A stretch of 64,000 nucleotides of DNA, from NCBI GenBank assembly GCA_963796055.1, contig CAWCKH010000004.1, positions 736,001 through 800,000 of the forward strand, in the 5' to 3' direction. Shown here piece by piece: positions 17,486 through 52,869 of the stretch. The stretch comes from an uncultured delta proteobacterium. GTDB lineage: Bacteria > Myxococcota > Myxococcia > Myxococcales > Myxococcaceae. Position 1 is the first letter of the stretch, and the number at the start of each line of letters is the position of its first letter. Made by a program: the position numbers and the translations under genes. The notes below the pieces were generated by a model. That model did no database searches, was not told where the DNA came from, and was given only the letters and a program-made list of their open reading frames with translations.

Positions 17486-18724
17486 GCGCCAGCGCCGCGA
17501 GCCTCGAGACGCTGGCCGCGGCCCGGCAGGAACGCCCGGCGACCCTGGCCGAGGCCGCCGAGGTGCTCCGGCGCGCGGATCGGGACGGGGAGCGGCTGCT
17601 CTTCCTCGGCGGCGGCACCGAGCTCTCGCTCGGCGCTCCACCGGTCGGGGTCGAGGTGGTGCTCGGCACCGAGCGGCTGGAGCGCATCGTCGAGCATGCG
17701 CCTCTCGATCAGATCGTCACGGTCGAGGCAGGCGTGCGGCTGGCGTCCCTTCAAGATTCTCCTCGTTCGCTCGGGCCAGATGCTCGCGCTGGATCCGCCC
17801 TGGGCGAGCCAGGCGACCCTGGGAGGGCTGGTGGCGACCAACGCCTTCGGGCCCCGGCGCACGCGGTACGGGAGCATCCGCGACCTCATCATCGGCATTT
17901 CCATCGTCCGGGCCGACGGTACGGAGGCGCGGAGCGGCGGGAAGGTGGTGAAGAACGTCGCCGGCTTCGACCTCCCGAAGCTCATGGTCGGCTCGCTCGG
18001 GACGCTCGGGTTCATCGCCACCGTCACCTTCCGGCTCCACCCGCGCCCCGAGACGGAGAGGACGGTGCTCTTCCCCGACCTGGACGCCGATGCAGTCCGG
18101 CGGGTGGTGCTCGCCATGCGAGAGGCGCAGCTCGAGCCGGGCGCGGGCGCGGCCCTGGTCCATGAGGGTGGCGACGACCTGGGGGTCCGGTTCGATGGGC
18201 GATTCGAGCTGGGCGTCCGCTTCGAGGGGTTTGAGGCGGGGGTGCGGCAGCAGGCGATGAAGCTCCTCGAGCTCGCCACGCGCCAGGGCTGGGGCGCGGA
18301 GTCGCTCGGCGCAGAGACCGCCCGAGCGTTCTGGGCGAGACACGACGACGCGCGCGAGTCCCCCGCCGGGTTCCGGGCCAAGCTGGCCGCGCAGCCGATG
18401 GATCTCGAGCGGGTGGCCAACGCCGCCATCGGCTCGCTCTTCACGGCGCTCGAGGTCCCTCGCTGCGTCTGTTACCCGCTGCTCGGGCTGGCCTTCGTCG
18501 CCGGAGAAGTCCGCGTGCCCGGCCAGGTGGCCGCCGCGGTGGCCGCCGCCCGCGAGGCGCTTCCCCAGGGGAGCGTGGTGCTCGAGGCGGCCGCGCTCGA
18601 GGTGCGGGCCGCGGTGGACGTGTGGGGACCGCGGCCGCCGGCGTTCGCGCTGATGGCCCAGGTGAAGCAGCGGCTGGACCCGGGAAGACGGCTCGCACCC
18701 GGGCGATTCGTGGGCGGACTCTAG
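17482..18724 (+). CDS. glcE: Glycolate oxidase FAD-binding subunit, with one extra base at about 17757
   Basis: The N-half (GGGT..VTVEAGV) and C-half (ATLGG..GPRR.RYG, SGGKVVKNVAGFDLPKL..DP.RRLAPGRF) join if one T of TT 17757-17758 is removed; span is 1243 = 3n+1. Confidence 0.85.
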
Positions 18725-26260: not shown

Positions 26261-26779
26261 GTGGACGACGATTCTCGAGAGTTCGAGCGGTTCGCCCGGC
26301 CCCACGCCGCCGCGGCACTCCGCCTGGCGCGGACGCTGGTCCGCAACGAGGCCGATGCCCAGGACGTGCTCCAGGACTCGTTCCTCCGGGCCCTCCGCCA
26401 TTTCCGTGGCTTCTCCGGGGACAGCCCGCGGGCCTGGCTCCTGTCCATCGTCCGCAACGTCAGCTTCACCCTGTGGAGGAAGCGCGAGCGGGACGACGTG
26501 GGTGAGGTCGAGCCGGCGCTGGAGGCCGAGCCGGACCCGGGCCCCTCGCCCGAGGCGAGGCTGCTGGAGGCGTGCGACGCCGAGCAAGTCCATGCGGCGC
26601 TGGACCGGCTGCCGGGCCTCCACAGAGAGGTGCTGGTGCTGAGAGAGATGGAGGAGTGCAGCTACCGGGAGATCGCCGACATCCTCGGCGTGCCAATCGG
26701 GACGGTGATGTCGAGGCTGTCGCGCGCTCGTGCGCAGCTGGTGAAGGAGCTGGTGGGCGACCCGAGGAGCAAGAACTGA
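26261..26779 (+). CDS. ECF RNA polymerase sigma factor
   Basis: DAQDVLQDSFLRA, RAWLLSIVRN, SYREIADILGVPIGTVMSRLSRAR. Confidence 0.93.
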   Translation: MDDDSREFERFARPHAAAALRLARTLVRNEADAQDVLQDSFLRALRHFRGFSGDSPRAWLLSIVRNVSFTLWRKRERDDVGEVEPALEAEPDPGPSPEARLLEACDAEQVHAALDRLPGLHREVLVLREMEECSYREIADILGVPIGTVMSRLSRARAQLVKELVGDPRSKN

Positions 26780-27501
26780 TGAGTCCCTTCGACGAACATC
26801 CGCGTGGCGCGCTTCACGCTTACCTCGACGGGGAGCTCTCGCTGGAGGGCTCGCTGGAGGTGGAGCACCACCTCGAGGAGTGCGACGCCTGCCGCCGCGA
26901 GCTGGAGACCTTCCGGGCGCTCCGGCGGTTGCTCCAGTCGGCGAAGCGCGCGGCGCCCGAGGCAGAGTCGGCCCTGGTCAAGGTGACCCGCCGCGTCCAG
27001 GTGCGACGGCGGCGAGTCTTCGCTGCCGGCGGGTTCGCGGCCATGGCGGCCGCGGCGGTGCTGGCGCTGGTGCTGTTGCCCGGCCAGAACCTTGGCATGG
27101 CGAACGAGGTCGCGGCGGTGCACGCCCGGGCGCTGGACGCCGGCCGGACGGTGGAGCTCTCCTCGAACGACCCCGCGGCCATCGAGCGCTGGCTCTCCAG
27201 CCGGCTCCCCCAGGCCGTCCCGCCGACGGCCGGAGGGGACGGGTTCGCGCTGCGCGGGGCGCGCGTCGACTCGCTCGAGGGCCGGCAGGTGGCGGCGGTG
27301 GTGTACCAGGTGCGAAGCCATCTGGTGGACGTGTTCGCCTGGCCCTCGGCAGAGCGCGACATGGAGCCCCGCCCCCTGGTGGCAGGACGGTGGACGGTCT
27401 GCCGCTGGGCGCACCGGGGGGTGGCGTACTGGATGGTCTCCGACGCCGGAACCGAGGACCTCAAGGCGCTCGCCGCGCTGATCAAGGAACAGCGCACGTG
27501 A
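26779..27501 (+). CDS. Transmembrane zinc-binding anti-sigma factor (zf-HC2/ZAS)
   Basis: AYLDGEL..HLEECDAC; one TM helix; periplasmic LRGARVD..GR.VAAVVY domain. Confidence 0.9.
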   Translation: MSPFDEHPRGALHAYLDGELSLEGSLEVEHHLEECDACRRELETFRALRRLLQSAKRAAPEAESALVKVTRRVQVRRRRVFAAGGFAAMAAAAVLALVLLPGQNLGMANEVAAVHARALDAGRTVELSSNDPAAIERWLSSRLPQAVPPTAGGDGFALRGARVDSLEGRQVAAVVYQVRSHLVDVFAWPSAERDMEPRPLVAGRWTVCRWAHRGVAYWMVSDAGTEDLKALAALIKEQRT

Positions 27502-35237: not shown

Positions 35238-36776
35238 ATGTCGGGGCAGGCCATGCCCCGGTCGGTCCCCATCGAGCTGCTGAGCTTCCGGCGCACCTTC
35301 GCCCTGCTGATGGTGCTGGTGGCGGTGCCGTCGGCGGGGCTCACCGGGCTGGGGGTGGTGGCGATCCTCAACGAGCGCGCGGCGGTGGAGAAGCGCCTGG
35401 CCCTGGTGTGGCAGGACCGGCTCGACACCCTGAGCACCCGGTTCCGCCAGGCGCTGGAGGCGAGCACCGTGACCCAGGTCGACGGCGGCCTCAGGGTCAC
35501 GGCGCCCTCGGGCCAGCTTCTGTCGGGCGCGGGGTTCCGGCTGTCCCGCGACGTGCTCGAATCACCGGACTCCGACCTGGTGGCCGCGCTCACCCCGCTC
35601 CGGAGCCAGCTGGCGTTCCTCCCCGAGCGACCCAGCTTCCAGAGCATTGCCGGGCCCCAGGGGCCGTTGCTGATCGTGGCCCTCCGGACGCCCGACGGCG
35701 TGCTGGGAGCGCAGCTCTCGCAGGCTGCGCTGGAGCAGCTCCTCGCGAGCAGCGCCCAGGACCTGAAGGGCAAGGGCGAGCAGGTCCGCTTCGAGCTCAC
35801 CGCGGTGCAGCCGGCCCGACCGGGGCTGGTGGGCAAGTTCGTGGGCGGAGTGCCCGGGGCGAAGAACGCGCTGGAGGTGAGCCCGCTCGCCGAGCGGCCA
35901 CTGCCTCCGCCCCTTCAAGAATTCCAGCTGCGCGCCATGCCCGAGGCGGGCGATCCAGTCGCGTTCGCCTCGTTGCGCAACCGGCTGGTCTACGCCGGGC
36001 TGCTCGGTGCGTTCTACGCCACCCTGGTGGTGGGGGTGATCTACACCGCGCGCGCTCTCTATCTCCAGGCCCGGCTGTCCCGCCTGAAGACAGACTTCGT
36101 GAGCCTGGTGAGCCACGAGCTGCGTACCCCGCTCACCTCCATCCGGATGTTCATCGAGACCCTGGCGCTCGGCCGGGTGAAGGAGCCCCAGCAGACGCAG
36201 GAGGTGCTGGAGCTGCTCCAGAAGGAGACCGAGCGGCTCTCGGCGATGATCGAGCGGGTGCTCGACTGGGCGCGACTCGAGTCCGGGCGGCAGCGCTACC
36301 GCAAGGAGCGCCTCACCCCGAGGGAGATCATCGACGCCTCGCTCGACGCCTTCCGCGCGCAGCGGCTGGACAGCCAGGTCCAGCTCCGCTGCGAGGTGCC
36401 CGAGGCGCTCCCGGCGCTGGAGGGGGACCGCGAGGCGCTGGCGGGCGCGCTGCTCAATCTCCTCCACAACGCCTACAAGTACTCGGGCGCCGAGAAGCGC
36501 ATCGAGCTGCGGGCCGAGGTGCGGAACGGGGGGGTGGACATCCAGGTCGAGGACCACGGAGTGGGCATCGCCAAGCGTGACCGGAAGCGGGTGTTCGATC
36601 GCTTCTACCGGGTGGACAATCTCCTGACCCGCCAGACCGAGGGCTCGGGGCTCGGCCTCTCCATCAGCCGGCGCATCGTCGAGGCCCACGGGGGCAGGCT
36701 CACGCTGACCAGCGAGCTGGGCAAGGGCAGCACCTTCACCATCCACCTCCCGGCGGCGAAGGAGGCGCGGGCGTGA
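35238..36776 (+). CDS. Membrane sensor histidine kinase
   Basis: Two TM helices; VSHELRTPL H-box, NLLHNAYKYS, D.G.GI, FDRFYR, GSGLGLSI. Alternative start at ATG 35253. Confidence 0.94.
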   Translation: MSGQAMPRSVPIELLSFRRTFALLMVLVAVPSAGLTGLGVVAILNERAAVEKRLALVWQDRLDTLSTRFRQALEASTVTQVDGGLRVTAPSGQLLSGAGFRLSRDVLESPDSDLVAALTPLRSQLAFLPERPSFQSIAGPQGPLLIVALRTPDGVLGAQLSQAALEQLLASSAQDLKGKGEQVRFELTAVQPARPGLVGKFVGGVPGAKNALEVSPLAERPLPPPLQEFQLRAMPEAGDPVAFASLRNRLVYAGLLGAFYATLVVGVIYTARALYLQARLSRLKTDFVSLVSHELRTPLTSIRMFIETLALGRVKEPQQTQEVLELLQKETERLSAMIERVLDWARLESGRQRYRKERLTPREIIDASLDAFRAQRLDSQVQLRCEVPEALPALEGDREALAGALLNLLHNAYKYSGAEKRIELRAEVRNGGVDIQVEDHGVGIAKRDRKRVFDRFYRVDNLLTRQTEGSGLGLSISRRIVEAHGGRLTLTSELGKGSTFTIHLPAAKEARA

Positions 36777-37468
36777 GCCAGGAGAAGCCGCGCGTGCTGG
36801 TGGTGGAGGACGACCTCTCCATCCTCACCGGCGTGTCGATGAACCTCCGCTTCGAGGGCTACGAGGTGCTCCAGGCCCAGGACGGGGCGCGGGGCCTGGA
36901 GATGGCGGTCCGCGAGGCGCCGGACCTCATCGTGCTCGATCTGATGATGCCCCGGCTCAACGGCTACGAGGTGCTTCGCGAGCTGCGGTCGCGCGGGGTC
37001 CGCACCCCGGTGCTGGTCCTCTCGGCGAAGGGCATGGAGCGCGACAAGGTGCTGGGCCTCGACCTGGGGGCGGACGACTACGTGGTGAAGCCGTTCGGAG
37101 TCGCCGAGCTGGTGGCCCGGGTGAAGGCGGTGCTCCGGCGGCGCTGGGGTGACGACGGCGAGGTGGTGCGCTTCGGGGACGTGGCGGTGAGCCTGGGCAC
37201 CCGGCAGGTGACGCGGGCCGAGGCCCCGGTGGACCTGACGGCGCAGGAGTTCAAGCTGCTGGCGCACCTGGTCTCGAATCCCGGACGGACCTTCTCCCGG
37301 GAGGAGCTGCTCACCGGCGCCTGGGGCATCGACTACGACGGAACCCCGCGGACAGTGGACACTTTCGTTCGCCAGCTCCGGCAGAAGCTCGAGCCCGATC
37401 CGGAGGCGCCCCGCTACATCCTGACCGCGCGGGGCCTGGGCTACCGGTTCCAGCGCCACCCAGGCTGA
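36773..37468 (+). CDS. OmpR-family response regulator
   Basis: VEDD, DLMMP, GADDYVVKPF, winged helix RTVDTFVRQLRQKLE..RGLGY. Confidence 0.95.
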   Translation: MSQEKPRVLVVEDDLSILTGVSMNLRFEGYEVLQAQDGARGLEMAVREAPDLIVLDLMMPRLNGYEVLRELRSRGVRTPVLVLSAKGMERDKVLGLDLGADDYVVKPFGVAELVARVKAVLRRRWGDDGEVVRFGDVAVSLGTRQVTRAEAPVDLTAQEFKLLAHLVSNPGRTFSREELLTGAWGIDYDGTPRTVDTFVRQLRQKLEPDPEAPRYILTARGLGYRFQRHPG

Positions 37469-37630
37469 CGCCACCGCGGGGCGGCAGGGAAGATCCGCCC
37501 TCCGCGACCGACTCTCCCTGGGGACATGAGACCGGACCTCGCACTCCACACGGATGCCTTGACCGTCGTTCGAGCACGGTGGCACCGTCACACCATTCCG
37601 GCGCCGTCGAAGTCCCGCAGTCCAACGACA

Positions 37631-38143
37631 GTGGATCCCACCTTGCGGGCGGCCGTCGTCGCGCTCCGGCCCGTCCTGCTCGTCCTGGCGCGGCGGATGT
37701 GTGCGTCCGAGGCAGATGCCGCCGACGTGGTGCACGACGCCCTGGAGAGCGCGCTGCAGGCGGGCGACCGGCTGAAGGCCGTGGAAAATCTACAGGCCTG
37801 GCTGGTGACCATCCTGCACCGACGGATGATCGACCTGTTCCGCAAGCGTGAGCGCGAGCAGCTGGGCGATCCGCCCGAGGCGCCGGCGACGACGCAGGAG
37901 ATGCCGGCGGTGGACGCGCCGCGGTGGATGGAGATCGACGGCGCGCAGCTCCGGGCGGCGGTGGAGCGGCTTGAGCCCGAGTTCCGCGAGGTGTTCACCC
38001 TGCACGCCTTCGAGCGCCGCTCGTACCGGGACATCGCCGCCGCGCTCGACATTCCACAGAACACGGTCGGAACGCGCCTTCTCCGGGCGCGCCGGAAGCT
38101 CCGGGTGCTGCTGCTGGGCGGCCCGGGGGAGGTGGGGACATGA
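37631..38143 (+). CDS. ECF RNA polymerase sigma factor
   Basis: DAADVVHDALESA, AWLVTIL, SYRDIAAALDIPQNTVGTRLLRAR. Start approximate. Confidence 0.9.
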   Translation: MDPTLRAAVVALRPVLLVLARRMCASEADAADVVHDALESALQAGDRLKAVENLQAWLVTILHRRMIDLFRKREREQLGDPPEAPATTQEMPAVDAPRWMEIDGAQLRAAVERLEPEFREVFTLHAFERRSYRDIAAALDIPQNTVGTRLLRARRKLRVLLLGGPGEVGT

Positions 38144-41031
38144 CGCCCGAGGACCACAGCGGGGGCCCCGTGCACTGCGACCAGCTGGGGCCGTTCGTGG
38201 ACGGCGAGCTGGACGCGCAGGAGGCGGTGGCGTTCCGCCGGCACCTCCTGGTGTGCGCTCGGTGCCAGCAGGAAATGCACGGGCTGATGCAGCTGTCCGC
38301 CCTGGCCGAGCAGGCGCGGGAGCAGCGTCCGGTGGCGCAGCCCGACCTCGCGCCGGTTCTGGTGGCCGCGGCGGACCGGCGCGCCCGACCGCGCCGCGCG
38401 GCATGGGTGGGCGTGGTGGGCGCGGTGGCGCTTGCGGCGGCGGTGGTGCTGGCGCTCCGGGTCAACGCCTCCCGATCCGATCTCCCCACCCTGCTCGCCT
38501 CTCTCGATGCACGCCGGACCTCGGGGTGGCCGAGCTATGCCGGGCCCCGCGAGTACCGCCCGTACGTGGTCCAGCGTGGGACCGCTGCCTCCGCGCCCCT
38601 CAAGGGGCTGGCCCGGCTCGAGGAGGAGGGCAACTGGCAGGCGCTCGGGACGGCCGCGCTGGTACGGGGCGAGTACGCGCAAGCGCTGAGCTACCTCCAG
38701 CGCGCGCCGCGGAACGTCGCCGCGCTCAACGACCTCGGCCTCGCGCTGATGGACAGCGGAAAGCTCGAGGCGGCGCTCGAGGCCTACGACCAGGCGCGAG
38801 AGCTGGACCCGACCTTCGCGCCGGTGGAGTTCAATCGCGCTCTGGCGCTGGAGCGGCTGGGGCTGCCGCGCGCCGGGCTCGACACGATTCGCGAGGCGAG
38901 CCTTCGCGCGAAAGGGGGCTGGAAGGACGAGGCGGTCCGGATCGCATCCTCCCTGCAGTCCACGGTGGATGCGCGGACAGCCGAGTCCGCGCGGGTGGAG
39001 CAGGCCAGGGAGGCGATGCTCGAGGGACGGATGCCCGAGCCGACGCTGGTCCGGGCCGTCCCGGGGATCTTCCGTTCCCAGTTTTACGTCGCGCTGGCGC
39101 TCGCCCCGGATCGGGCCGCCGTGGAACAGCTCCTTCCCCTGGCCCGGGAGCTGGACGGGAGCTCCGGAACCGGGCGCCTCCAGCGCTGGGTGGCGGACAC
39201 CGCCGCCAGGGCCTCTTCCCGGCGCGCGCAGCTTGCCGTGCGTCTGCGGCCGCTCGTCACCCGCTCCACGCTCGAGCAGCGGCAGCCGCTCGCGGCCGAG
39301 GCCCGCGCCGCCGGGCAGGAGGACCAGCTGCTCTTCGTCCTCTCCCGCGATTTCTTCTCCCGGGAGGAGAACCCGGCGTACGCCGAGCTGGTGCAGCGCC
39401 TGCACGACCCTTACTGGGACGTGCGCCTGGTGGAGTACCACGCCTGGGTGGAGCGGAAGAGCGGGCGGCTGAGCGCGTCGGAGCGGTTCGCCCGGAGCGT
39501 GATCGACGGCCCGTGTCGTGACCCCACGCTCTCCGCGGTCTGCGCCGACACCGCGCTGGGGCTCGCCCTCACCTACGCCCATGCCGGCCGCCCAGCCGAT
39601 GCGCAGCGGGCCTTCGAGACCCTCCGCGGCCTCGCGGTGCGCGCCCCGCATCCACGGAGGGACTACGGTGTCTTGCTCCTCGCCGGCGCGAACAGCGCGG
39701 ATGCCGACCGGGTGGGGCTGGCCCGCGGCGAGTTCGACGAGGCCGCCCATCTGCCCAGCGAGACCTGCGAAGAAGCCCAGTACGGCCACATCTCGCTCGC
39801 TCAGGCGTACCTTCGCCGCGGAGATGCGGTGAGCACCCGGGCGGTGCTCGAGGCGGCCCCGCGCTGCGAGGAGGGGAACCGCCTGGAGCAAGCGGAGGTG
39901 CGGACCGATCTGGCGGTCCTCACCACCACGTCCCAGGACCGGGCGGCTGCCGTCGAGCGGATCCGGAAGGCCTCGGCGGCAGCCACGACGCCGGTCGACC
40001 GGCTGGTGCTGGACGCGCTCCGGCTGATGCTCGACGCAGAGGACGGTCGGCCGGACACGCGGGCGCGTCTTGCCGAGCTCCAGCGCGGGTCGAGGGACGT
40101 CGCCGGCGCGGAGGACCAGGTGGCGCGGGCCGGGCGGACCGTGGCGCTCCAGCTGATCCGCGAGTCCCGGTACCAGGATGCGCTCGAGGTCGCCGCGACG
40201 ATGCTCGACACCGCCGCCCCGGACCGCTGCGCCCTGGCGGTCGTGGCCGATGCTCGGCGGGTGGGGCTGGTGTGGACCACCCCGGACAGCGGCGTCCACG
40301 GCCAGGTCCGCCTCCGTTCGGACCCGGGGGCTCCTGGGGGCGATCCCACCTGCGCCGCCGTCACCGTCCTCGCCCCCACGGGGCTGCTCGATCTCGCTCG
40401 CTGGCTCCCCGCCGACCAGGCCTGGAGCCTCCGGGTGGGGCCGTCCCGGCCGGAGGGTCCGATGCGGTTCCAGGATCGGCTCCTGGTGCGCGGGGCGCTG
40501 GCCCCCGCGGACCTCGACCTGCCCCCGCTGAGCCGGGAGAGTGCCGTCCGCGCGGGTTGGAAGGTCGTGGAGGGGGCCGACGCCACTCCGTCGCGGGTGC
40601 TGGAGCAGCTGGAGAGCGCCGACCTGGTCGACTTCGAGGTGCACGGGCTGGTGGACGCCTCGGCTCCGGACGGGGCCGTCCTCGTGCTCAGTCCGGATTC
40701 GCAGGGCAACTATGCGATCTCGGCGACGGACATCCGGCAGCTGCGGCTCGCGCGCGGACCAGTGGTTCTCCTCGGGGCCTGCCGCTCCGCGACCGGCTCG
40801 CACTACAGGGATGTCACGTGGACCCTGCCCCAGGCCTTTGTTCGCGCCGGGGCTCGCGCCGTGTACGCCTCCGTGGCAGAGTTGCCCGACGATCGCGTCG
40901 GCGACTTCCTCGCCGGCGTCGCCCGGCGGCTGGAACGGGGGGTTGCACCGAGCGTGGCGCTCCGCGACGAGCGGGTCGAGTGGTTGCGGCGGGGCGAGGG
41001 CTGGGCACGGGACGTCGTGCTGTTCGACTAG
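38140..41031 (+). CDS. zf-HC2 anti-sigma domain, TM helix, TPR repeats and CHAT (caspase-like) domain
   Basis: FVDGEL..HLLVCARC; TM segment; TPR (ALNDLG.AL..YDQA..FNRALALE); CHAT dyad EVHG (His 40642) and LGACRS (Cys 40780); AF..AGARAVYAS. Confidence 0.87.
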   Translation: MTPEDHSGGPVHCDQLGPFVDGELDAQEAVAFRRHLLVCARCQQEMHGLMQLSALAEQAREQRPVAQPDLAPVLVAAADRRARPRRAAWVGVVGAVALAAAVVLALRVNASRSDLPTLLASLDARRTSGWPSYAGPREYRPYVVQRGTAASAPLKGLARLEEEGNWQALGTAALVRGEYAQALSYLQRAPRNVAALNDLGLALMDSGKLEAALEAYDQARELDPTFAPVEFNRALALERLGLPRAGLDTIREASLRAKGGWKDEAVRIASSLQSTVDARTAESARVEQAREAMLEGRMPEPTLVRAVPGIFRSQFYVALALAPDRAAVEQLLPLARELDGSSGTGRLQRWVADTAARASSRRAQLAVRLRPLVTRSTLEQRQPLAAEARAAGQEDQLLFVLSRDFFSREENPAYAELVQRLHDPYWDVRLVEYHAWVERKSGRLSASERFARSVIDGPCRDPTLSAVCADTALGLALTYAHAGRPADAQRAFETLRGLAVRAPHPRRDYGVLLLAGANSADADRVGLARGEFDEAAHLPSETCEEAQYGHISLAQAYLRRGDAVSTRAVLEAAPRCEEGNRLEQAEVRTDLAVLTTTSQDRAAAVERIRKASAAATTPVDRLVLDALRLMLDAEDGRPDTRARLAELQRGSRDVAGAEDQVARAGRTVALQLIRESRYQDALEVAATMLDTAAPDRCALAVVADARRVGLVWTTPDSGVHGQVRLRSDPGAPGGDPTCAAVTVLAPTGLLDLARWLPADQAWSLRVGPSRPEGPMRFQDRLLVRGALAPADLDLPPLSRESAVRAGWKVVEGADATPSRVLEQLESADLVDFEVHGLVDASAPDGAVLVLSPDSQGNYAISATDIRQLRLARGPVVLLGACRSATGSHYRDVTWTLPQAFVRAGARAVYASVAELPDDRVGDFLAGVARRLERGVAPSVALRDERVEWLRRGEGWARDVVLFD

Positions 41032-41041
41032 GGGGAAGCCG

Positions 41042-41826
41042 ATGAGAACGCATCGCTGGATCTTCGCAGTCCCGGTGGTCTGCGCGCTGACGGCCTGCCA
41101 GCACTGGGACTGGCATCAGCCGCCGCGGGGCGTGCCGGAGCAAGACGACTGCAAGCAGTACTCGGTGAAGGAGTCGATCTCGTTCTACGAGCAGTTCCTT
41201 CCGCCGCGCGGCTACTACCAGGTCTACGCCCTCGCGGAGCCGCCCGACGAGACGACGGAACCAACAAGGCTGCCCTACTCCTTCATCGTCTTCCGGGTCC
41301 GGGATGCGCGCTTCCCCGATCGGAAGGACCCGGTCGTCGAGCGCATCATCGGCCCCGTTCGCACCAAGGAGGAGTGGACGGACCTGTTCTCGGTCTTCCG
41401 CCGCTACGCCTCGTCCCCCCCGCCGGGTACTACTGCTGGCAGAACGACTGCCGGGGGAAGTACAGCCCGGCAGGTGATCCGGATCCCCGCGATCCCTACC
41501 CGCCGGAGATCCCCGACCACGCGGGGATCACGGTGCCCAGCGGACTCGGGACCACCCCCGTTCCACAAGGTGCCTATGGCCTTCGCGGTGGTCCAGCGCG
41601 GAGTCAGGGGACCGGAGGATCCGGTTTCGAGCCCGGGACCGGGGGAGCCGGATGCAACTTCGTCCCCCGCGACAAGACCGTGCTCACCGCCGAGCTTCTC
41701 GAGAAGCTCCGGGCGAGCGCCAGCCGGGTGGGCCAGGCGCTGGAGGACGTCCCGGAGGTGCCCGGTTGGCAGAAGCCTCCGCCGGTGCCTGAAGACAAGT
41801 CTGCGCAGCCGCCTGGAAGCAAGTGA
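41042..41826 (+). CDS. Cys/Pro-rich lipoprotein, hypothetical; one base missing in the C7 run 41415-41421
   Basis: GGGGGA RBS; lipobox LTAC; the GC3-rich frame switches at the C7 run into YYCWQNDC..; span is 785 = 3n-1. Confidence 0.65.
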
Positions 41827-42772
41827 GTCGCGCCACGGGCTCGCCGCGCTGGCGCTCGCGGGGGCGCTCGTTCTCCTGGGCTGCACTCCTCGCCCGTGGC
41901 CCGGGGAGCGAAGGGGTCGGCTTCCCGATCTCGCTCCCCCGGCGCTGATCGCCCGGGAGCCATCCTCGGGCCACGCAGGTCTGCTCGCGGTCACCTCCGG
42001 AGAGGGGCGGCCGCAGCGCTGGACGCGGGCGGGCGCGTGGAGTCGCGGGTCGACGAGGGGAATCGCCGCGCGGATCCAGGTGACCCGACCGGCGGTGGTC
42101 GGGGAGGAGCACTCCCTCGTCGAGGTGGAGGCGCAGCTCGGCAGCGTCGCACGCCACGCCGTGGAGATCGGGATCCGGACCTCCCGCCTGGAGTACGGCG
42201 ACTCCGATCCGCACCTCTTCGTCTTCGCCTGGGTCGCCGGGCGCCGGACCTGCTACGACCGATGCGGCTGGCAGGGGGTGCCCGCCGGCGCTCGCCCGGG
42301 CGAGGACCTCGCCGGACGGATCGGGACGGAGGTCACGCTGGGCCTCGTGCTGCACGAGGGCGCGTGGTGGGCATGGATGGACTCGGAGTGGCTGGGGGCC
42401 TTTCCGCTCGACGTCTGGAACGGCGCCTTCTCCGAAGCGGATGGGCTCCAGTGGTTCGGCGAGGTATTTGCTCCCGACGCCAGGCCTCGCTCGGAGATGG
42501 GCACCGGCCTCGCTGCCACCGTACCGGGCGCGGCGACGCTCCGCGGACTGTGTCACGTGCCGTGGGATCGCTGGGCCTGCGTCGAGGAGGAGCGAACGCA
42601 GCTGCGTGCTGACGCGCCGTCGCGCTATGGCGCGGCGCTCTGGGACGACGGGACTCTGACCTACGGCGGCCCGCAGAAGCCGCCGGCGGTCACACCGCGT
42701 CCACCACCTTCGTCAGCCAGCGCAGGAACGCCTCCGGCGACAGGAAGGTCAGCGCCATCTCGCCCACGTTGA
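41823..42772 (+). CDS. Neprosin-family (DUF239) glutamic prolyl endopeptidase-like lipoprotein; probable missing G at 41837-41839
   Basis: HSLVE, VEIG (Glu 42164), YGD..PHLFVFAW...TCYD.CG, WW....WLG.FP..W, QWFGEV (Glu 42461), MGTG, YGGP. GTG 41823 plus one G gives MSRATGLAALALAGALVLLGC. Confidence 0.72.
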
Positions 42773-43196
42773 TGCGGGTCGCCCCGCCGAGCGTCGCCGG
42801 AATGTTGGGCTGGACCGGAACGCCGTCGACCAGCGTGCCGTTGCGGCTGGCGGCGTCCACCACGTTCCAGCGGGCAATCTGCGTCGGGTCGGGGGTGAAG
42901 TAGGCGTGGAAGCGAGACACGCTGGCGTGGGGGAAGACCAGGTCGTTGTGCTCGGCGCGGCCGACGGTCACCCCGGCGCCGAACGGGTTCGCCCGGCCCT
43001 GGACCTTCTTCACCAGGAACACCACCGGGTTCTCGCGCGAGGGCGCGTGCTCGGGCGGCCTGGTCACCCAGTGCGCATCCGACAGCTCGCCTTCCCAGAC
43101 GACGAGCGGCGTCTCCAGCGCGCCCTGGAGGCCACCCTCGTCATCCACCAGACGGCGGACCCAGTCGGTGAGTGGGGCGCTGGAGGGAAGTTCCAT
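42690..43196 (-). CDS. FHA domain protein
   Basis: VTVGR..HNDLV....SVSRFHA..VD..SRNGT.VDG. Confidence 0.88.
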   Translation of the reverse strand: MELPSSAPLTDWVRRLVDDEGGLQGALETPLVVWEGELSDAHWVTRPPEHAPSRENPVVFLVKKVQGRANPFGAGVTVGRAEHNDLVFPHASVSRFHAYFTPDPTQIARWNVVDAASRNGTLVDGVPVQPNIPATLGGATRINVGEMALTFLSPEAFLRWLTKVVDAV

Positions 43197-48223: not shown

Positions 48224-49535
48224 ATGACCCGAGCTCTTGGAACGGTGGTGGTCGGCCTGGCCCTGCTCTGGGCCGTGCCATCACTCGCGCAGAACGCTGA
48301 CAACCCGGAATGTCTCGGCACCCAGTGCGGCGCGCCCAAGGAGGAGGGCGGCGGCTGCGGCTGCGGGTGTGGCTGCGGCTGCTCGGTGTGGGTGAGCTAC
48401 ACCGACGACGGCAAGACGCTGTCCTACACCGACGACGCCGACGGTGACGGCAAGTCCGACGGCTTCGACAACTGCCCCTTCGTCGCCAACCGCGACCAGG
48501 CCGACGGCGACGGTGACGGCGTGGGCAATGCCTGCGACAACTGCTCCAGCGTTGCCAATCCCGACCAGCGCGACACCGACGGCGATGGCAAGGGTGACGC
48601 CTGCGATGACGACAGCGACGGCGACGGCATCCTCAACGCCCAGGACAACTGCCCCAACATTCCCAACGCCGACCAGCTCGACACCGACCAGGATGGCAAG
48701 GGCGACGCCTGTGACGAGGACGACGACAACGACGGCGTCGCCGACGCGGCGGACCACTGCCCCCGCTACCACGATGCCAGCAACCCCGCCCACCATCGCC
48801 GGCGTGCAGTGCGTGGTGGACTCCGACAATGACGGCGTCGACGATGCCCGCGACAACTGCCCCACCGTGGCCAACGTCGACCAGAAGGACACCGACAACG
48901 ACGGCATCGGTGACGCCTGCGACAAGGACATCGACAACGACGGCGTGCTGAATGCCCAGGACAACTGCGTCAAGGACGCCAACGCCGACCAGCGCGACGA
49001 CGACGGCGACGGCGTGGGCGACGTCTGCGACCCGAGGTACTGCGTGGTCGTCGACCCGTCCAACCCCAACGCCTGCCTCGACCCCAACGCCGCCTTCGCG
49101 GTGAGCGCCGGTGGCAGCATCACCCTCAAGCGGGGTGAGGCCCTGCGGCTGCCGCTGTTCGCCAACCGCAACAACGTGGGCATCAGCTACAGCTGGACCG
49201 TCAGCGCGCGGCCCTCCGGCTCTTCGGCCGCGGTCCAGAACCCCATCGGCGTGGCCAGCGTCAGCCGTCACTGGAGCTACGCGTACCCGGACGCGGTGGG
49301 CAAGCCCATCTTCACCCCCGACGCCGAGGGCGAGTTCACCCTGCAGCTGACCGCGAAGATGGTGACCCCGGATGCGCGTTACCCCGGGGTGAGCCAGTCC
49401 ACTGCGGCGCTGACGGTGAAGGTCCAGCCGAGTGCCTCGGCCAGCGGCGGCTGCACCGCGCTGCCCTTGGGCGCTCCGGGCGTGGGTCTGGCCCTCGCCG
49501 CCCTCGGCCTCCTCGTCCGCCGCCGCCGTTCATGA
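48224..49535 (+). CDS. mtsC: Thrombospondin type-3 repeat MYXO-CTERM protein (MtsC-like), copy 1; one extra C at 48784-48787
   Basis: Signal peptide; GC-repeat tract; DNC....N.DQ.D.D.DG.GDACD repeats; GGC-TM-RRRR tail; span is 1312 = 3n+1 versus 1311 for copy 2. Confidence 0.8.
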
Positions 49536-51558: not shown

Positions 51559-52869
51559 ATGAAGAACTCACGACTGATCGGATCGCTGGTGGTCGGCCTC
51601 ACGCTCGCGTGGGCCGTGCCGGCGTTGGCGCAGAACAGTGACAACCCCGAATGTCTCGGCACCGAGTGCGGCGCGCCCAAGGAAGAGGGCGGCGGCTGTG
51701 GCTGCGGCTGCGGTTGCTCGGTGTGGGTGAGCTACACCGACGACGGCAAGACGCTGTCCTACACCGACGACGCCGATGGTGATGGCAAGTCCGACGGCTT
51801 CGACAACTGCCCCTTCGTCGCCAACCGCGACCAGGCCGACGGCGACGGTGACGGCGTGGGCAATGCCTGCGACAACTGCTCCAGCGTTGCCAATCCCGAC
51901 CAGCGCGACACCGACGGCGATGGCAAGGGTGACGCCTGCGATGACGACAGCGACGGCGACGGCATCCTCAACGCCCAGGACAACTGCCCCAACATTCCCA
52001 ACGCCGACCAGCTCGACACCGACCAGGATGGCAAGGGCGATGCCTGTGACGAGGACGACGACAACGACGGCGTCGCCGACGCGGCGGACCACTGCCCCCG
52101 CTACCACGATGCCAGCAACCCCCCCACCGTCGCCGGCGTGCAGTGCGTGGTGGACTCCGACAATGACGGCGTCGACGATGCCCGCGACAACTGCCCCACC
52201 GTGGCCAACGTCGACCAGAAGGACACCGACAACGACGGCATCGGTGACGCCTGCGACAAGGACATCGACAACGACGGCGTGCTGAATGCCCAGGACAACT
52301 GCGTCAAGGACGCCAACGCCGACCAGCGCGACGACGACGGCGACGGCGTGGGCGACGTCTGCGACCCGAAGTACTGCGTGGTTGTCGACCCGTCCAACCC
52401 CAACGCCTGCCTCGACCCCAACGCCGCCTTCGCGGTGAGCGCCGGTGGCAGCATCACCCTCAAGCGGGGTGAGGCCCTGCGGCTGCCGCTGTTCGCCAAC
52501 CGCAACAACGTGGGCATCAGCTACAGCTGGACCGTCAGCACGCGGCCCTCCGGCTCTTCAGCCGCGGTCCAGAACCCCATCGGCGTGGCCAGCGTCAGCC
52601 GTCACTGGAGCTACGCGTACCCCGACGCGGTGGGCAAGCCGACCTTCACTCCGGATTCGGATGGCGACTTCACCCTGCAGCTGACCGCGAAGATGGTGAC
52701 CCCGGATGCGCGTTACCCCGGGGTGAGCCAGTCCACCGCGGCGCTGACGGTGAAGGTCCAGCCGAGTGCCTCGGCCAGCGGCGGCTGCACCGCGCTGCCC
52801 CTGGGCGCTCCGGGCGTGGGTCTGGCCCTCGCCGCCCTCGGTCTCCTCGTCCGCCGTCGCCGGCAGTAA
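51559..52869 (+). CDS. mtsC: Thrombospondin type-3 repeat MYXO-CTERM protein (MtsC-like), copy 2, intact
   Basis: Signal peptide, [26 protein letters not shown]3 repeats, [15 protein letters not shown] tail. Confidence 0.85.
   Translation: MKNSRLIGSLVVGLTLAWAVPALAQNSDNPECLGTECGAPKEEGGGCGCGCGCSVWVSYTDDGKTLSYTDDADGDGKSDGFDNCPFVANRDQADGDGDGVGNACDNCSSVANPDQRDTDGDGKGDACDDDSDGDGILNAQDNCPNIPNADQLDTDQDGKGDACDEDDDNDGVADAADHCPRYHDASNPPTVAGVQCVVDSDNDGVDDARDNCPTVANVDQKDTDNDGIGDACDKDIDNDGVLNAQDNCVKDANADQRDDDGDGVGDVCDPKYCVVVDPSNPNACLDPNAAFAVSAGGSITLKRGEALRLPLFANRNNVGISYSWTVSTRPSGSSAAVQNPIGVASVSRHWSYAYPDAVGKPTFTPDSDGDFTLQLTAKMVTPDARYPGVSQSTAALTVKVQPSASASGGCTALPLGAPGVGLALAALGLLVRRRRQ

What the first reader, a model, noticed from the sequence alone, without database searches (positions are those of the whole stretch)
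37631..42772. Candidate two-protease signalling operon: ECF sigma, zf-HC2-TM-TPR-CHAT, lipoprotein, neprosin-like peptidase
Seen: four tightly coupled genes (ATGA overlap, a 10-nt gap with RBS, GTGA overlap). The 963-aa protein has an N-terminal zinc anti-sigma finger, one TM helix, TPRs and a CHAT domain with an intact His-Gly/Ala-Cys dyad. The last gene keeps both glutamates typical of neprosin (VEIG, WFGEV). Known: CHAT domains are caspase-like proteases often gated by TPR ligands, neprosins are glutamic post-proline endopeptidases, and ECF plus zf-CHAT pairs occur in myxobacteria. Inference: with the anti-sigma finger inside, the CHAT domain lies outside the cytoplasm. The Pro/Asp-rich lipoprotein could be the ligand or substrate of either protease, making a surface proteolytic relay that releases the sigma factor. 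I know of no description of this four-gene combination.
Basis: partly seen in the sequence, partly recalled or inferred. Interest (0 to 1): 0.78.

Follow-up and report, generated by a model that had tools for sequence, protein, structure and literature searches.

The report
Caspase-like sigma switch with hidden partner
This soil myxobacterium carries a known type of gene switch (a sigma factor held by a membrane inhibitor with a caspase-like protease domain), followed by a small lipoprotein of a kind found next to most such switches and likely to be their overlooked regulator, and by a plant-type glutamic protease gene kept across this genus that probably acts as an accessory rather than as the trigger.

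Summary
The first two genes are a DdvS/DdvA-type pair: the 963-aa protein matches M. xanthus DdvA end to end (PDB 8ROT, E 4e-41), with CHCC zinc finger, one TM helix and His835/Cys881. That architecture, and a following unknown gene plus peptidase, is published. Corrections: the sigma gene likely starts at 37526; gene 3 has a one-base frameshift (likely an assembly error); the GTGA start is out of frame with the neprosin gene. New here: (1) a small exported Pro-loop protein follows 39 of 56 zinc-finger DdvA-like genes and 10 of 12 sigma-less ones, so it likely regulates the TPR-CHAT domain, as MucB guards MucA; (2) the neprosin-like gene is in 11 of 12 relatives in the genus but is one of five peptidase types seen at this position, and many loci have none, so it is probably accessory; two residues essential in plant neprosin differ, so proline specificity is unsupported; (3) a conserved promoter also precedes a second, orphan ECF sigma, and no CRISPR or CBASS markers were found. 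This scan reported split sigma/anti-sigma/TPR-CHAT modules on other DNA; a neprosin-linked one was not retrieved. Binding and cleavage are untested.

The parts
37487..37512 (+). ECF-type promoter motif GGGAAGAT-N14-CGAC, likely the autoregulatory promoter of this sigma factor
   Evidence: Upstream of the sigma gene in 12 of 13 genus genomes (pattern derived from these sites); 33 matches against 4 for the reversed control; GGGAAGA(T/A) also precedes 11 of 52 DdvS-like sigma genes outside the genus
37526..38143 (+).
   Evidence: Pfam r2 and r4_2; start context conserved in 8 of 8 genus loci; 37% identical over 155 aa to the sigma of a ddvA-type CBASS locus
38140..41031 (+). DdvA-like anti-sigma factor, 963 aa: zinc finger, TM helix, linker, TPR scaffold, CHAT domain
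   Evidence: Full-length match to DdvA, PDB 8ROT, residues 12-962, E 3.7e-41; Pfam
38176..38265 (+). CHCC zinc anti-sigma domain (C13, H35, C39, C42), same spacing as DdvA C6/H28/C32/C35
38401..38460 (+). Single predicted transmembrane helix (residues 88-107), positive-inside, so TPR-CHAT is predicted extracytoplasmic
   Evidence: DdvA cryo-EM topology
38575..38577 (+). Arg146 in the linker (R-G), candidate CHAT self-cleavage site
   Evidence: Arg in 62 of 68 aligned DdvA-like proteins, mostly followed by Gly/Ser/Ala; aligns to DdvA V129-P140, the segment nearest the dyad; DdvA itself has Met at this column
40642..40782 (+). CHAT catalytic dyad His835 (40642-40644) and Cys881 (40780-40782)
   Evidence: Invariant in 71 of 71 aligned homologues
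41042..41826 (+). Gene 3: lipoprotein (lipobox Cys19), about 260 aa in relatives, small beta-sheet/helix core with a disordered Pro/Asp-rich loop; split by a one-base frameshift in this assembly
   Evidence: Intact in relatives; P0024 is 78% and 96% identical to the two halves; Cys19 invariant in 41 of 41; AlphaFold model of P0024; no Pfam or NCBIfam family for the homologues scanned
41415..41421 (+). C7 homopolymer where the frame of gene 3 slips; likely assembly error
   Evidence: GC3 frame switch; 11 frameshift-like breaks in 256 orthologue comparisons across this assembly; no read data cover the site
41825..42772 (+). Gene 4: neprosin-like glutamic peptidase with its own lipobox (Cys codon 41882) and no pro-domain; start codon unresolved (in-frame CTG at 41789, 41801, 41813); Glu dyad at 42164 and 42461; overlaps the convergent FHA gene by 83 nt
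   Evidence: Pfam PF03080; alignment to PDB 7ZVB; dyad in 9 of 9; dN/dS 0.13-0.19 against 4 close relatives

Best explanation
The locus is a DdvS/DdvA-type sigma/anti-sigma operon with two added exported genes, in which the gene 3 lipoprotein likely binds the anti-sigma's predicted periplasmic TPR-CHAT domain and keeps it from cutting its own linker, while the neprosin-like protein is probably an accessory feedback protease rather than the trigger. Steps: (1) shown by sequence: the zinc finger, TM helix, TPR-CHAT and dyad match DdvA. (2) From the DdvA literature: the finger holds the sigma factor, and RseP cuts the TM stub once the outer domain is gone; this genome has RseP. (3) Inferred: an envelope or foreign-protein signal displaces the lipoprotein, the CHAT of one protomer cuts the other's linker near Arg146, RseP finishes, and the sigma is freed. 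(4) Inferred from the shared promoter: the sigma amplifies its own operon and switches on a second, orphan ECF sigma 45 kb away and possibly a membrane Ser/Thr kinase. (5) Inferred by analogy with algU-mucA-mucB-mucD: newly made lipoprotein and neprosin-like protease damp the response, the protease by clearing inducing proteins.
For: DdvA homology and dyad; RseP orthologue above the TIGR00054 cut-off. A 140-290-aa exported protein directly follows 39 of 56 zinc-finger DdvA-like genes. It also follows 10 of 12 sigma-less TM-TPR-CHAT genes, which fall at several places in the tree, so it travels with the protease domain, not with the sigma. Reverse test: a profile of such proteins from other genera found 75 matches in 51 of 201 genomes; of 21 matches fetched, 20 have a DdvA-like gene directly upstream or fused. 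Two genomes encode an anti-sigma with this domain fused in place of TPR-CHAT. The unknown gene between ddvA-type genes and the C25 peptidase also matches this profile, weakly. AlphaFold models of the two subfamilies give the same order, three strands, helix, Pro loop, helix, and share 11 weak structural neighbours. A Pro cluster lies in the second half of 39 of 56 such proteins against 16 of 128 control lipoproteins. Fourth gene variable or absent. MucB/MucD precedent (PMC3815931).
Against: Homology between the genus-type lipoprotein and the other small proteins is only suggested: profile-profile 48%, 26 columns (reversed control 0.2%); a second comparison aligned only the signal peptides; the other-genera profile found 0 of 12 in this genus. 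7 of 56 loci have no small ORF and 6 have only a tiny Pro-rich ORF with no signal peptide. The versions at C25 loci lack an evident signal peptide. In M. xanthus, DdvA still repressed when MXAN_7287-7284 was deleted (PMC6061681), which argues against an essential inhibitor if that deletion removed the homologue. DdvA autoproteolysis itself is unproven. Genomic coupling cannot tell guard from activator. Loci are related, so the counts overstate independence. In this strain gene 3 is frameshifted as assembled and gene 4 has no canonical start.
Confidence: 0.42

Rival explanations
1. The gene 3 lipoprotein is the activating ligand or sensor: when mislocalised or unfolded it presents its Pro-rich loop to the TPR cleft and switches the CHAT on.
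For: Same genomic coupling as the best explanation. The conserved Pro-rich loop is predicted disordered and survives as tiny Pro-rich ORFs in one clade. The DdvA authors expect a protein ligand, possibly a host periplasmic one. DdvA still represses without MXAN_7287-7284.
Against: An activator in the operon it induces gives runaway positive feedback; co-transcribed periplasmic partners in the algU/rpoE type are negative regulators. The tiny ORFs lack signal peptides.
Confidence: 0.2
2. Genes 3 and 4 are simply outputs of the sigma factor, with no physical link to the anti-sigma.
For: One promoter, tight spacing, both exported; the small proteins are very divergent and match no family.
Against: The small gene stays with 10 of 12 TPR-CHAT genes that have no sigma, is almost never found away from a DdvA-like gene, and is fused to an anti-sigma in two genomes.
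Confidence: 0.17
3. One reading: the neprosin-like enzyme acts first, cutting the Pro-rich lipoprotein or the linker, perhaps at low pH, and so unleashes CHAT and RseP.
For: Gene kept at this position in 11 of 12 relatives in the genus and under purifying selection; both proteins are lipoproteins; peptidases were recruited to this position in five clades; plant neprosin is acid-activated.
Against: 22 of 51 loci outside the genus have no fourth gene on the same strand. 9 of 9 inspected myxococcal neprosins outside the genus and 64 of 64 distant metagenomic ones are not near a DdvA-like gene. Gln173 and Trp175 are not kept. The start codon is weak or non-canonical in many relatives.
Confidence: 0.13
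4. The frameshift is real, so this strain makes a 576-aa lipoprotein-neprosin fusion or has a decaying 3' half of the operon.
For: The fused frame is open and would give the neprosin a start codon and signal peptide that it otherwise lacks; no reads cover the site.
Against: The middle 135 codons have GC3 in the other frame; a near-identical intact gene exists (P0024); the neprosin frame is open far upstream by chance in relatives too; the assembly has about 1 break per 25-30 kb of coding DNA; no longer fused homologues were found (weak evidence).
Confidence: 0.08

Closest known systems
DdvS/DdvA of Myxococcus xanthus (PMC11506125, PMC6061681; PDB 8ROT, 8RW5, 8RLZ)
   Same: ECF sigma coupled to a CHCC zinc finger-TM-TPR-CHAT anti-sigma of the same length and dyad; short CHAT (Pfam match from position 123 of 289); followed by an unknown protein and a peptidase; RseP and a CarD-sized CarD_TRCF_RID gene are in the genome.
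   Different: A separate clade from the C25/CBASS-linked DdvA type, so a paralogue. Promoter GGGAAGAT-N14-CGAC rather than GTAA-N16-CGT (one chance-level match in the window, not at this locus). No RAMP, Cas1 or SMODS match in the genome. Third gene is a lipoprotein; fourth is a neprosin-like lipoprotein rather than a C25 peptidase.
algU-mucA-mucB-mucC-mucD of Pseudomonas and rpoE-rseABC (PMC3815931)
   Same: Gene order and proposed logic: sigma, membrane anti-sigma, periplasmic guard, co-encoded protease acting as a damper; release through RseP/MucP.
   Different: No homology to MucB or MucD was seen (no Pfam hit for the small proteins); here the site-1 protease would be built into the anti-sigma. 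An analogy, not membership.
Neprosin, glutamic peptidase of Nepenthes (PMC9343461; PDB 7ZVB; PF03080)
   Same: Catalytic-domain profile over 3-214 of 214 and both catalytic glutamates.
   Different: No Neprosin_AP pro-domain; lipoprotein anchor; Gln173 is Glu and Trp175 is Ser/Glu, a pattern shared by most bacterial homologues (Glu in 74 of 80); activity, pH range and specificity untested.
Craspase Csx29/Csx30/CASP-sigma and SAVED-CHAT/PCaspase/PCi (bioRxiv 10.1101/2023.06.23.546230)
   Same: A caspase-like protease linked to sigma-factor release; PCi is a small co-encoded protein that is both inhibitor and substrate of its caspase.
   Different: Those systems are cytoplasmic and nucleotide- or RNA-gated; PCi has a predicted CI-2 fold and no reported homologues, unlike the fold predicted here.

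Membership tests
DdvA-like anti-sigma / DdvS-like ECF pair | ECF sigma (regions 2 and 4 only) encoded directly upstream and coupled | tested here: met
DdvA-like anti-sigma / DdvS-like ECF pair | N-terminal CHCC or HHCC zinc anti-sigma domain | tested here: met
   C13/H35/C39/C42, DdvA spacing; also matches PDB 8RLZ, E 5e-7
DdvA-like anti-sigma / DdvS-like ECF pair | Single TM helix with a roughly 850-900-residue TPR-CHAT domain outside | tested here: met
   Hydropathy and charge bias; full-length alignment to 8ROT; topology predicted, not measured
DdvA-like anti-sigma / DdvS-like ECF pair | His-Cys CHAT dyad | tested here: met
   H835/C881, 71 of 71
DdvA-like anti-sigma / DdvS-like ECF pair | Dimerisation, sigma binding and RseP-dependent turnover | not testable with these tools
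   RseP gene present; a two-protomer model exceeds the size limit
DdvS/DdvA orthologue controlling a CBASS-CRISPR island | GTAA-N16-CGT promoter at the operon | tested here: not met
DdvS/DdvA orthologue controlling a CBASS-CRISPR island | Flanking CBASS or type III-B CRISPR-Cas genes | tested here: not met
   Neighbours are a two-component pair and an FHA gene; no RAMP, Cas1 or SMODS in a 98.5% complete genome; the DncV-like search had no positive control
Neprosin family (PF03080) | Catalytic-domain profile above the curated cut-off | tested here: met
   45.8 bits against 22
Neprosin family (PF03080) | Glu188/Glu297 dyad | tested here: met
   16 of 16 and 15 of 16 (one contig truncated) in genus-type metagenome loci
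Plant-type neprosin prolyl endopeptidase | Gln173 and Trp175 oxyanion residues, essential by mutagenesis | tested here: not met
   Glu and Ser/Glu
Plant-type neprosin prolyl endopeptidase | Neprosin_AP pro-domain | tested here: not met
   No PF14365 hit at E 0.1; only about 45 residues between lipobox and catalytic domain
Plant-type neprosin prolyl endopeptidase | Acid-activated post-proline cleavage | not testable with these tools
   needs an enzyme assay
MucB/RseB-type guard protein | Sequence or fold homology to MucB/RseB | tested here: inconclusive
   No Pfam hit for homologues; not listed in fold searches, best Z 4.6
MucB/RseB-type guard protein | Binds the anti-sigma periplasmic domain and lowers its proteolysis | not testable with these tools
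   inferred from gene coupling only; needs pull-down and reporter assays

The most novel reading that the evidence does not exclude
The small Pro-loop lipoprotein family is the missing control element of all DdvA-type sensors, and in this genus a three-protease chain of three catalytic classes runs the switch: an acid-activated neprosin-like glutamic protease cuts the lipoprotein, the freed caspase-like CHAT cuts the anti-sigma linker at Arg146, RseP releases the sigma factor, and that sigma starts a second ECF cascade.
Probability: 0.13. Interest if true: 0.82.

Novelty: new variant of a known kind. Interest (0 to 1): 0.5.

Why it matters
The signal that activates DdvA-type sensors is an open question: the 2024 structure paper could not trigger CHAT self-cleavage and expects a protein ligand, possibly from the host. 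This locus and its relatives name a concrete candidate, a small exported protein that follows most DdvA-like genes and stays even when the sigma factor is lost. They also give a candidate cut site (Arg146) and a promoter for a reporter, so the question can be tested with deletions in cultured myxobacteria. The neprosin-like gene gives a bacterial member of that family a genomic context and an altered active site. [quoted passage not shown]

Tried and rejected
Complex prediction of anti-sigma residues 200-963 with the mature lipoprotein homologue P0024: no answer, score 0.00, neither support nor evidence against; the dimer could not be modelled. Fold searches of the two small-protein models: no match with E at or below 0.001 in PDB for the first, best Z 4.6 and 5.8 to RNase H-like/sugar-kinase-type arrangements, read as a common topology only. 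ESM Atlas gave no result for two stored homologues. Reads over the C7 run: no contig covers 41412-41561; no RNA holder listed. Longer fused forms of gene 3: none among 7991 candidates, weak evidence. Programmed frameshift or read-through joining genes 3 and 4: rejected, because the frame offset is 0, +1 or +2 in different relatives and each gene 4 has its own hydrophobic leader. Idea that the small proteins are PCi homologues: dropped after reading the preprint passages. DdvS promoter GTAA-N16-CGT: one match in the window, 0.84 expected. Sigma-70 promoter and terminator scans: nothing above chance. Search for the C25-type locus in five Myxococcus-sized genomes found none; 1 of 10 further C25 candidates was DdvA-linked. 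The dN/dS value for the CHAT part came from an out-of-frame slice and was discarded; gene 3 values were 0.35-0.72, less clear than for the neprosin. Literature searches with no hit: neprosin + bacteria + sigma factor, TPR-CHAT + lipoprotein + sigma, CHAT domain + myxobacteria + lipoprotein + inhibitor; the ECF reclassification paper has no CHAT or DdvS mention in its main text (its supplements not read). The library lacks most subscription papers.

Full report
Observation. Pfam confirms all domain calls above cut-off: ECF sigma; zf-HC2, TPR and CHAT in the 963-aa ORF 38140-41031; Neprosin in the ORF ending at 42772. The anti-sigma has one TM helix (residues 88-107) with 5 basic residues before and 1 after it. 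As assembled, ATG 41042 opens one 576-aa ORF that runs into the neprosin; GC3 moves to another frame from about 41420 to 41826 and back. In all 6 relatives that share the motif, gene 3 reads through it in one frame. The window has a C7 run at 41415-41421 that is one base short. A database protein, P0024, is intact and 78% and 96% identical to the two halves. This assembly shows 11 frameshift-like breaks, at 9 places, in 256 orthologue comparisons, so an assembly error is likely (my estimate 85-90%); no contig of the four runs covers the site. The GTG of the 'GTGA overlap' is out of frame with the neprosin, whose frame has only CTG/ACG candidates before its lipobox. Short-read contigs confirm 41775-42002 base for base. 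Starts in relatives are ATG, GTG, TTG, CTG or unclear.

What the core is. The anti-sigma aligns over residues 12-962 to M. xanthus DdvA (PDB 8ROT, E 3.7e-41). From PMC11506125 (parts 1, 2, 3 and 5 of 10, passages, and passages of supplementary Table S7): DdvA is a dimeric TM anti-sigma with a periplasmic TPR-CHAT in a resting state; RseP degrades it once that domain is removed; self-cleavage of the linker V129-P140 is proposed but unproven; the trigger is unknown; and the operon is ddvS, ddvA, an unknown protein and a putative C25 peptidase. His835 and Cys881 are invariant in 71 of 71 homologues. Arg146, in the aligned linker, is kept in 62 of 68 and mostly followed by a small residue. Other linker arginines (125, 140) are as conserved, and DdvA has Met at that column, so it is a candidate site only. 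This lead came from earlier scan notes and was re-tested here. The genome has RseP. DdvA-like genes occur in 111 of 201 family genomes (the tally includes one unpublished genome). The neprosin-linked proteins form one clade (support 1.0), apart from the C25/CBASS-linked clade (midpoint-rooted FastTree on 430 C-terminal residues of a subset of loci, close duplicates left out).

Promoter and targets. The sigma start is likely ATG 37526, preceded by GGGAAGAT-N14-CGAC at 37487-37512. The pattern gave 33 matches in 13 genus genomes against 4 for its reversed control. It precedes this sigma in 12 genomes (circular, since the pattern was built from these sites), an unrelated orphan ECF sigma in 9 and a Ser/Thr kinase in 2 (30 of the 33 matches were inspected as loci). 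The same -35 sequence precedes 11 of 52 DdvS-like sigma genes outside the genus, which suggests it is read by this sigma rather than by the orphan. The DdvS motif GTAA-N16-CGT (PMC6061681, passages) is absent here. No RAMP, Cas1 or SMODS match was found in this 98.5% complete genome, so the predicted output is a sigma cascade, not a defence island.

Gene 3. It is a lipoprotein (Cys19 invariant in 41 of 41) of no catalogued family. In a survey of 79 DdvA-like loci (5 duplicate records dropped), 39 of 56 zinc-finger-bearing genes are followed at once by a 140-290-aa predicted exported protein. One more is of the same family but missed by my crude signal test, 3 are shorter exported proteins, 6 are tiny Pro-rich ORFs without a signal, and 7 have none. 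Of 12 long sigma-less TM-TPR-CHAT genes, 10 keep such a neighbour. A profile of these proteins from other genera found 75 matches in 51 of 201 genomes (tally includes the unpublished genome). I fetched 20 regions holding 21 matches that were not among my listed DdvA loci; 20 of the 21 had a DdvA-like gene directly upstream or fused, and the exception matched by signal peptide only. The other matches were not counted. Two genomes of one genus fuse this domain to an anti-sigma in place of TPR-CHAT. At three further ddvA-type loci the gene before the C25-like gene matches the profile weakly (the C25 call for one of them rests on the genome search), so DdvA's 'unknown protein' is likely a relative, though apparently without a signal peptide. 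Whether the genus-type lipoprotein is homologous to these is suggested, not shown: 48% profile-profile over 26 columns (control 0.2%), only signal peptides aligned in a second comparison, no cross-hit, but the same predicted element order (mean pLDDT 66 and 72), 11 shared weak structural neighbours and a Pro cluster in 39 of 56 against 16 of 128 control lipoproteins.

Gene 4. It is found in 11 of 12 relatives in the genus and is contiguous with the anti-sigma and lipoprotein genes in 8. Of 80 metagenomic loci, the 16 genus-type ones show the lipoprotein upstream in 14 and the anti-sigma in 11 (the rest are cut short; some duplicate the MAGs); none of the other 64 does. Nine of the 10 myxococcal neprosins outside the genus were inspected and stand alone. 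dN/dS is 0.13-0.19. Both glutamates are kept, but Gln173 and Trp175, essential in the plant enzyme (PMC9343461 sections 12 and 14), are Glu and Ser/Glu, and the pro-domain is missing, so it probably works like a glutamic peptidase of unknown specificity. Bacterial neprosin-domain proteins are on record but few (bioRxiv 2022.02.22.481544, one passage). Elsewhere the same slot holds C25, trypsin, C39 or M24 peptidases, and 22 of 51 loci outside the genus have the next gene on the other strand. Not all downstream genes were scanned.

Mechanism. The arrangement parallels algU-mucA-mucB-mucD, where MucB protects the anti-sigma and MucD is thought to clear inducing proteins (PMC3815931, passages). 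I therefore read gene 3 as a likely guard of the TPR-CHAT domain and gene 4 as an accessory damper (0.42). Rivals: gene 3 as activating ligand (0.20), plain outputs (0.17), neprosin-first relay (0.13), real frameshift (0.08). Against the guard model, DdvA still repressed in a strain lacking MXAN_7287-7284, though it is unclear whether that deletion removed the homologue. PCi, a small caspase inhibitor and substrate (bioRxiv 2023.06.23.546230, passages; supplements closed), is a functional precedent but not a homologue.

Verdict. The core is known; the variant is new in its fourth gene and predicted regulon, and the family survey points to an overlooked third component of DdvA-type sensors. Three full-text searches found no description of these combinations, and 'neprosin' and 'lipoprotein' do not occur in the DdvA paper's supplements. 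Earlier scan notes describe split versions on other genomes; none was retrieved for this region or for the neprosin link. Interest 0.5.

Noticed in passing
G000:C4:728787-729453 (L247), 7 kb before the window: Orphan ECF sigma (194 aa, no adjacent anti-sigma) with a near-perfect copy of the operon's promoter motif, conserved in 9 genus genomes; likely second tier of a sigma cascade.
   Followed up: partly
G000:C4:834341-837122 (L248): 907-aa Ser/Thr kinase with a hydrophobic segment and a long C-terminal region, with the same promoter motif upstream; also in one relative (L271).
   Followed up: partly
L167-L246 (metagenome loci): Bacterial neprosin-like proteins carry Glu at the Gln173 position (74 of 80) and Ala, Ser or Glu at Trp175, i.e. 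a three-glutamate site unlike the plant enzyme; the 64 distant loci were not annotated further.
   Followed up: partly
L307:3444-4685 and L313:3155-4396: 413-aa natural fusion of zinc finger, TM, linker and first TPRs to the small partner domain, with no CHAT, next to an ECF sigma, in two genomes of one genus.
   Followed up: partly
L141, L146, L147, L149, L150, L152, L154, L155, L157: One DdvA-like clade has only 60-96-aa Pro-rich ORFs without signal peptide (or none called) after the anti-sigma, usually followed by an M24 lipoprotein peptidase; some have a second CHAT gene just upstream of the sigma.
   Followed up: partly
L143, L151, L153, L156, L161-L166, L305, L306, L316, L319: Sigma-less, zinc-finger-less membrane-anchored TPR-CHAT genes that keep the dyad, mostly the linker Arg, and the small partner: a stand-alone protease/partner pair of unknown role.
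   Followed up: partly
window 37526-37640: The N-terminal extension of the sigma gene is conserved at DNA level with codons unusual for a high-GC genome, which hints at an overlapping regulatory element.
   Followed up: no
window 35238-37468: Histidine kinase (35238-36776) and OmpR-type regulator directly upstream on the same strand; the regulator gene is upstream of the sigma in all 7 genus loci where covered; read-through into the operon is possible.
   Followed up: partly
window 42690-43196 (-): Convergent FHA-domain gene overlaps the neprosin gene's 3' end by 83 nt; the overlap is kept in most relatives.
   Followed up: no
window 17486-18724 and 48245-49535: Other apparently broken frames in the window: one near 17750, and one copy of a duplicated Asp-rich repeat gene (intact copy 51559-52869); they fit assembly indel errors.
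   Followed up: partly
window 26261-27501: A second ECF sigma / zinc anti-sigma pair, without CHAT.
   Followed up: no
G000:C4:112962, 2022909, 2923736 and C7:43780; C4:705484, 1813462-1824757: Four further large CHAT proteins and four large C25 (gingipain-like) proteins in this genome; C25 proteins occur in 11 of 12 relatives in the genus.
   Followed up: no
L050, L068, L074, L076, L077, L159, L160: In the Corallococcus clade the fourth gene is a lipoprotein with tandem NGLSF-type repeats rather than a peptidase.
   Followed up: no
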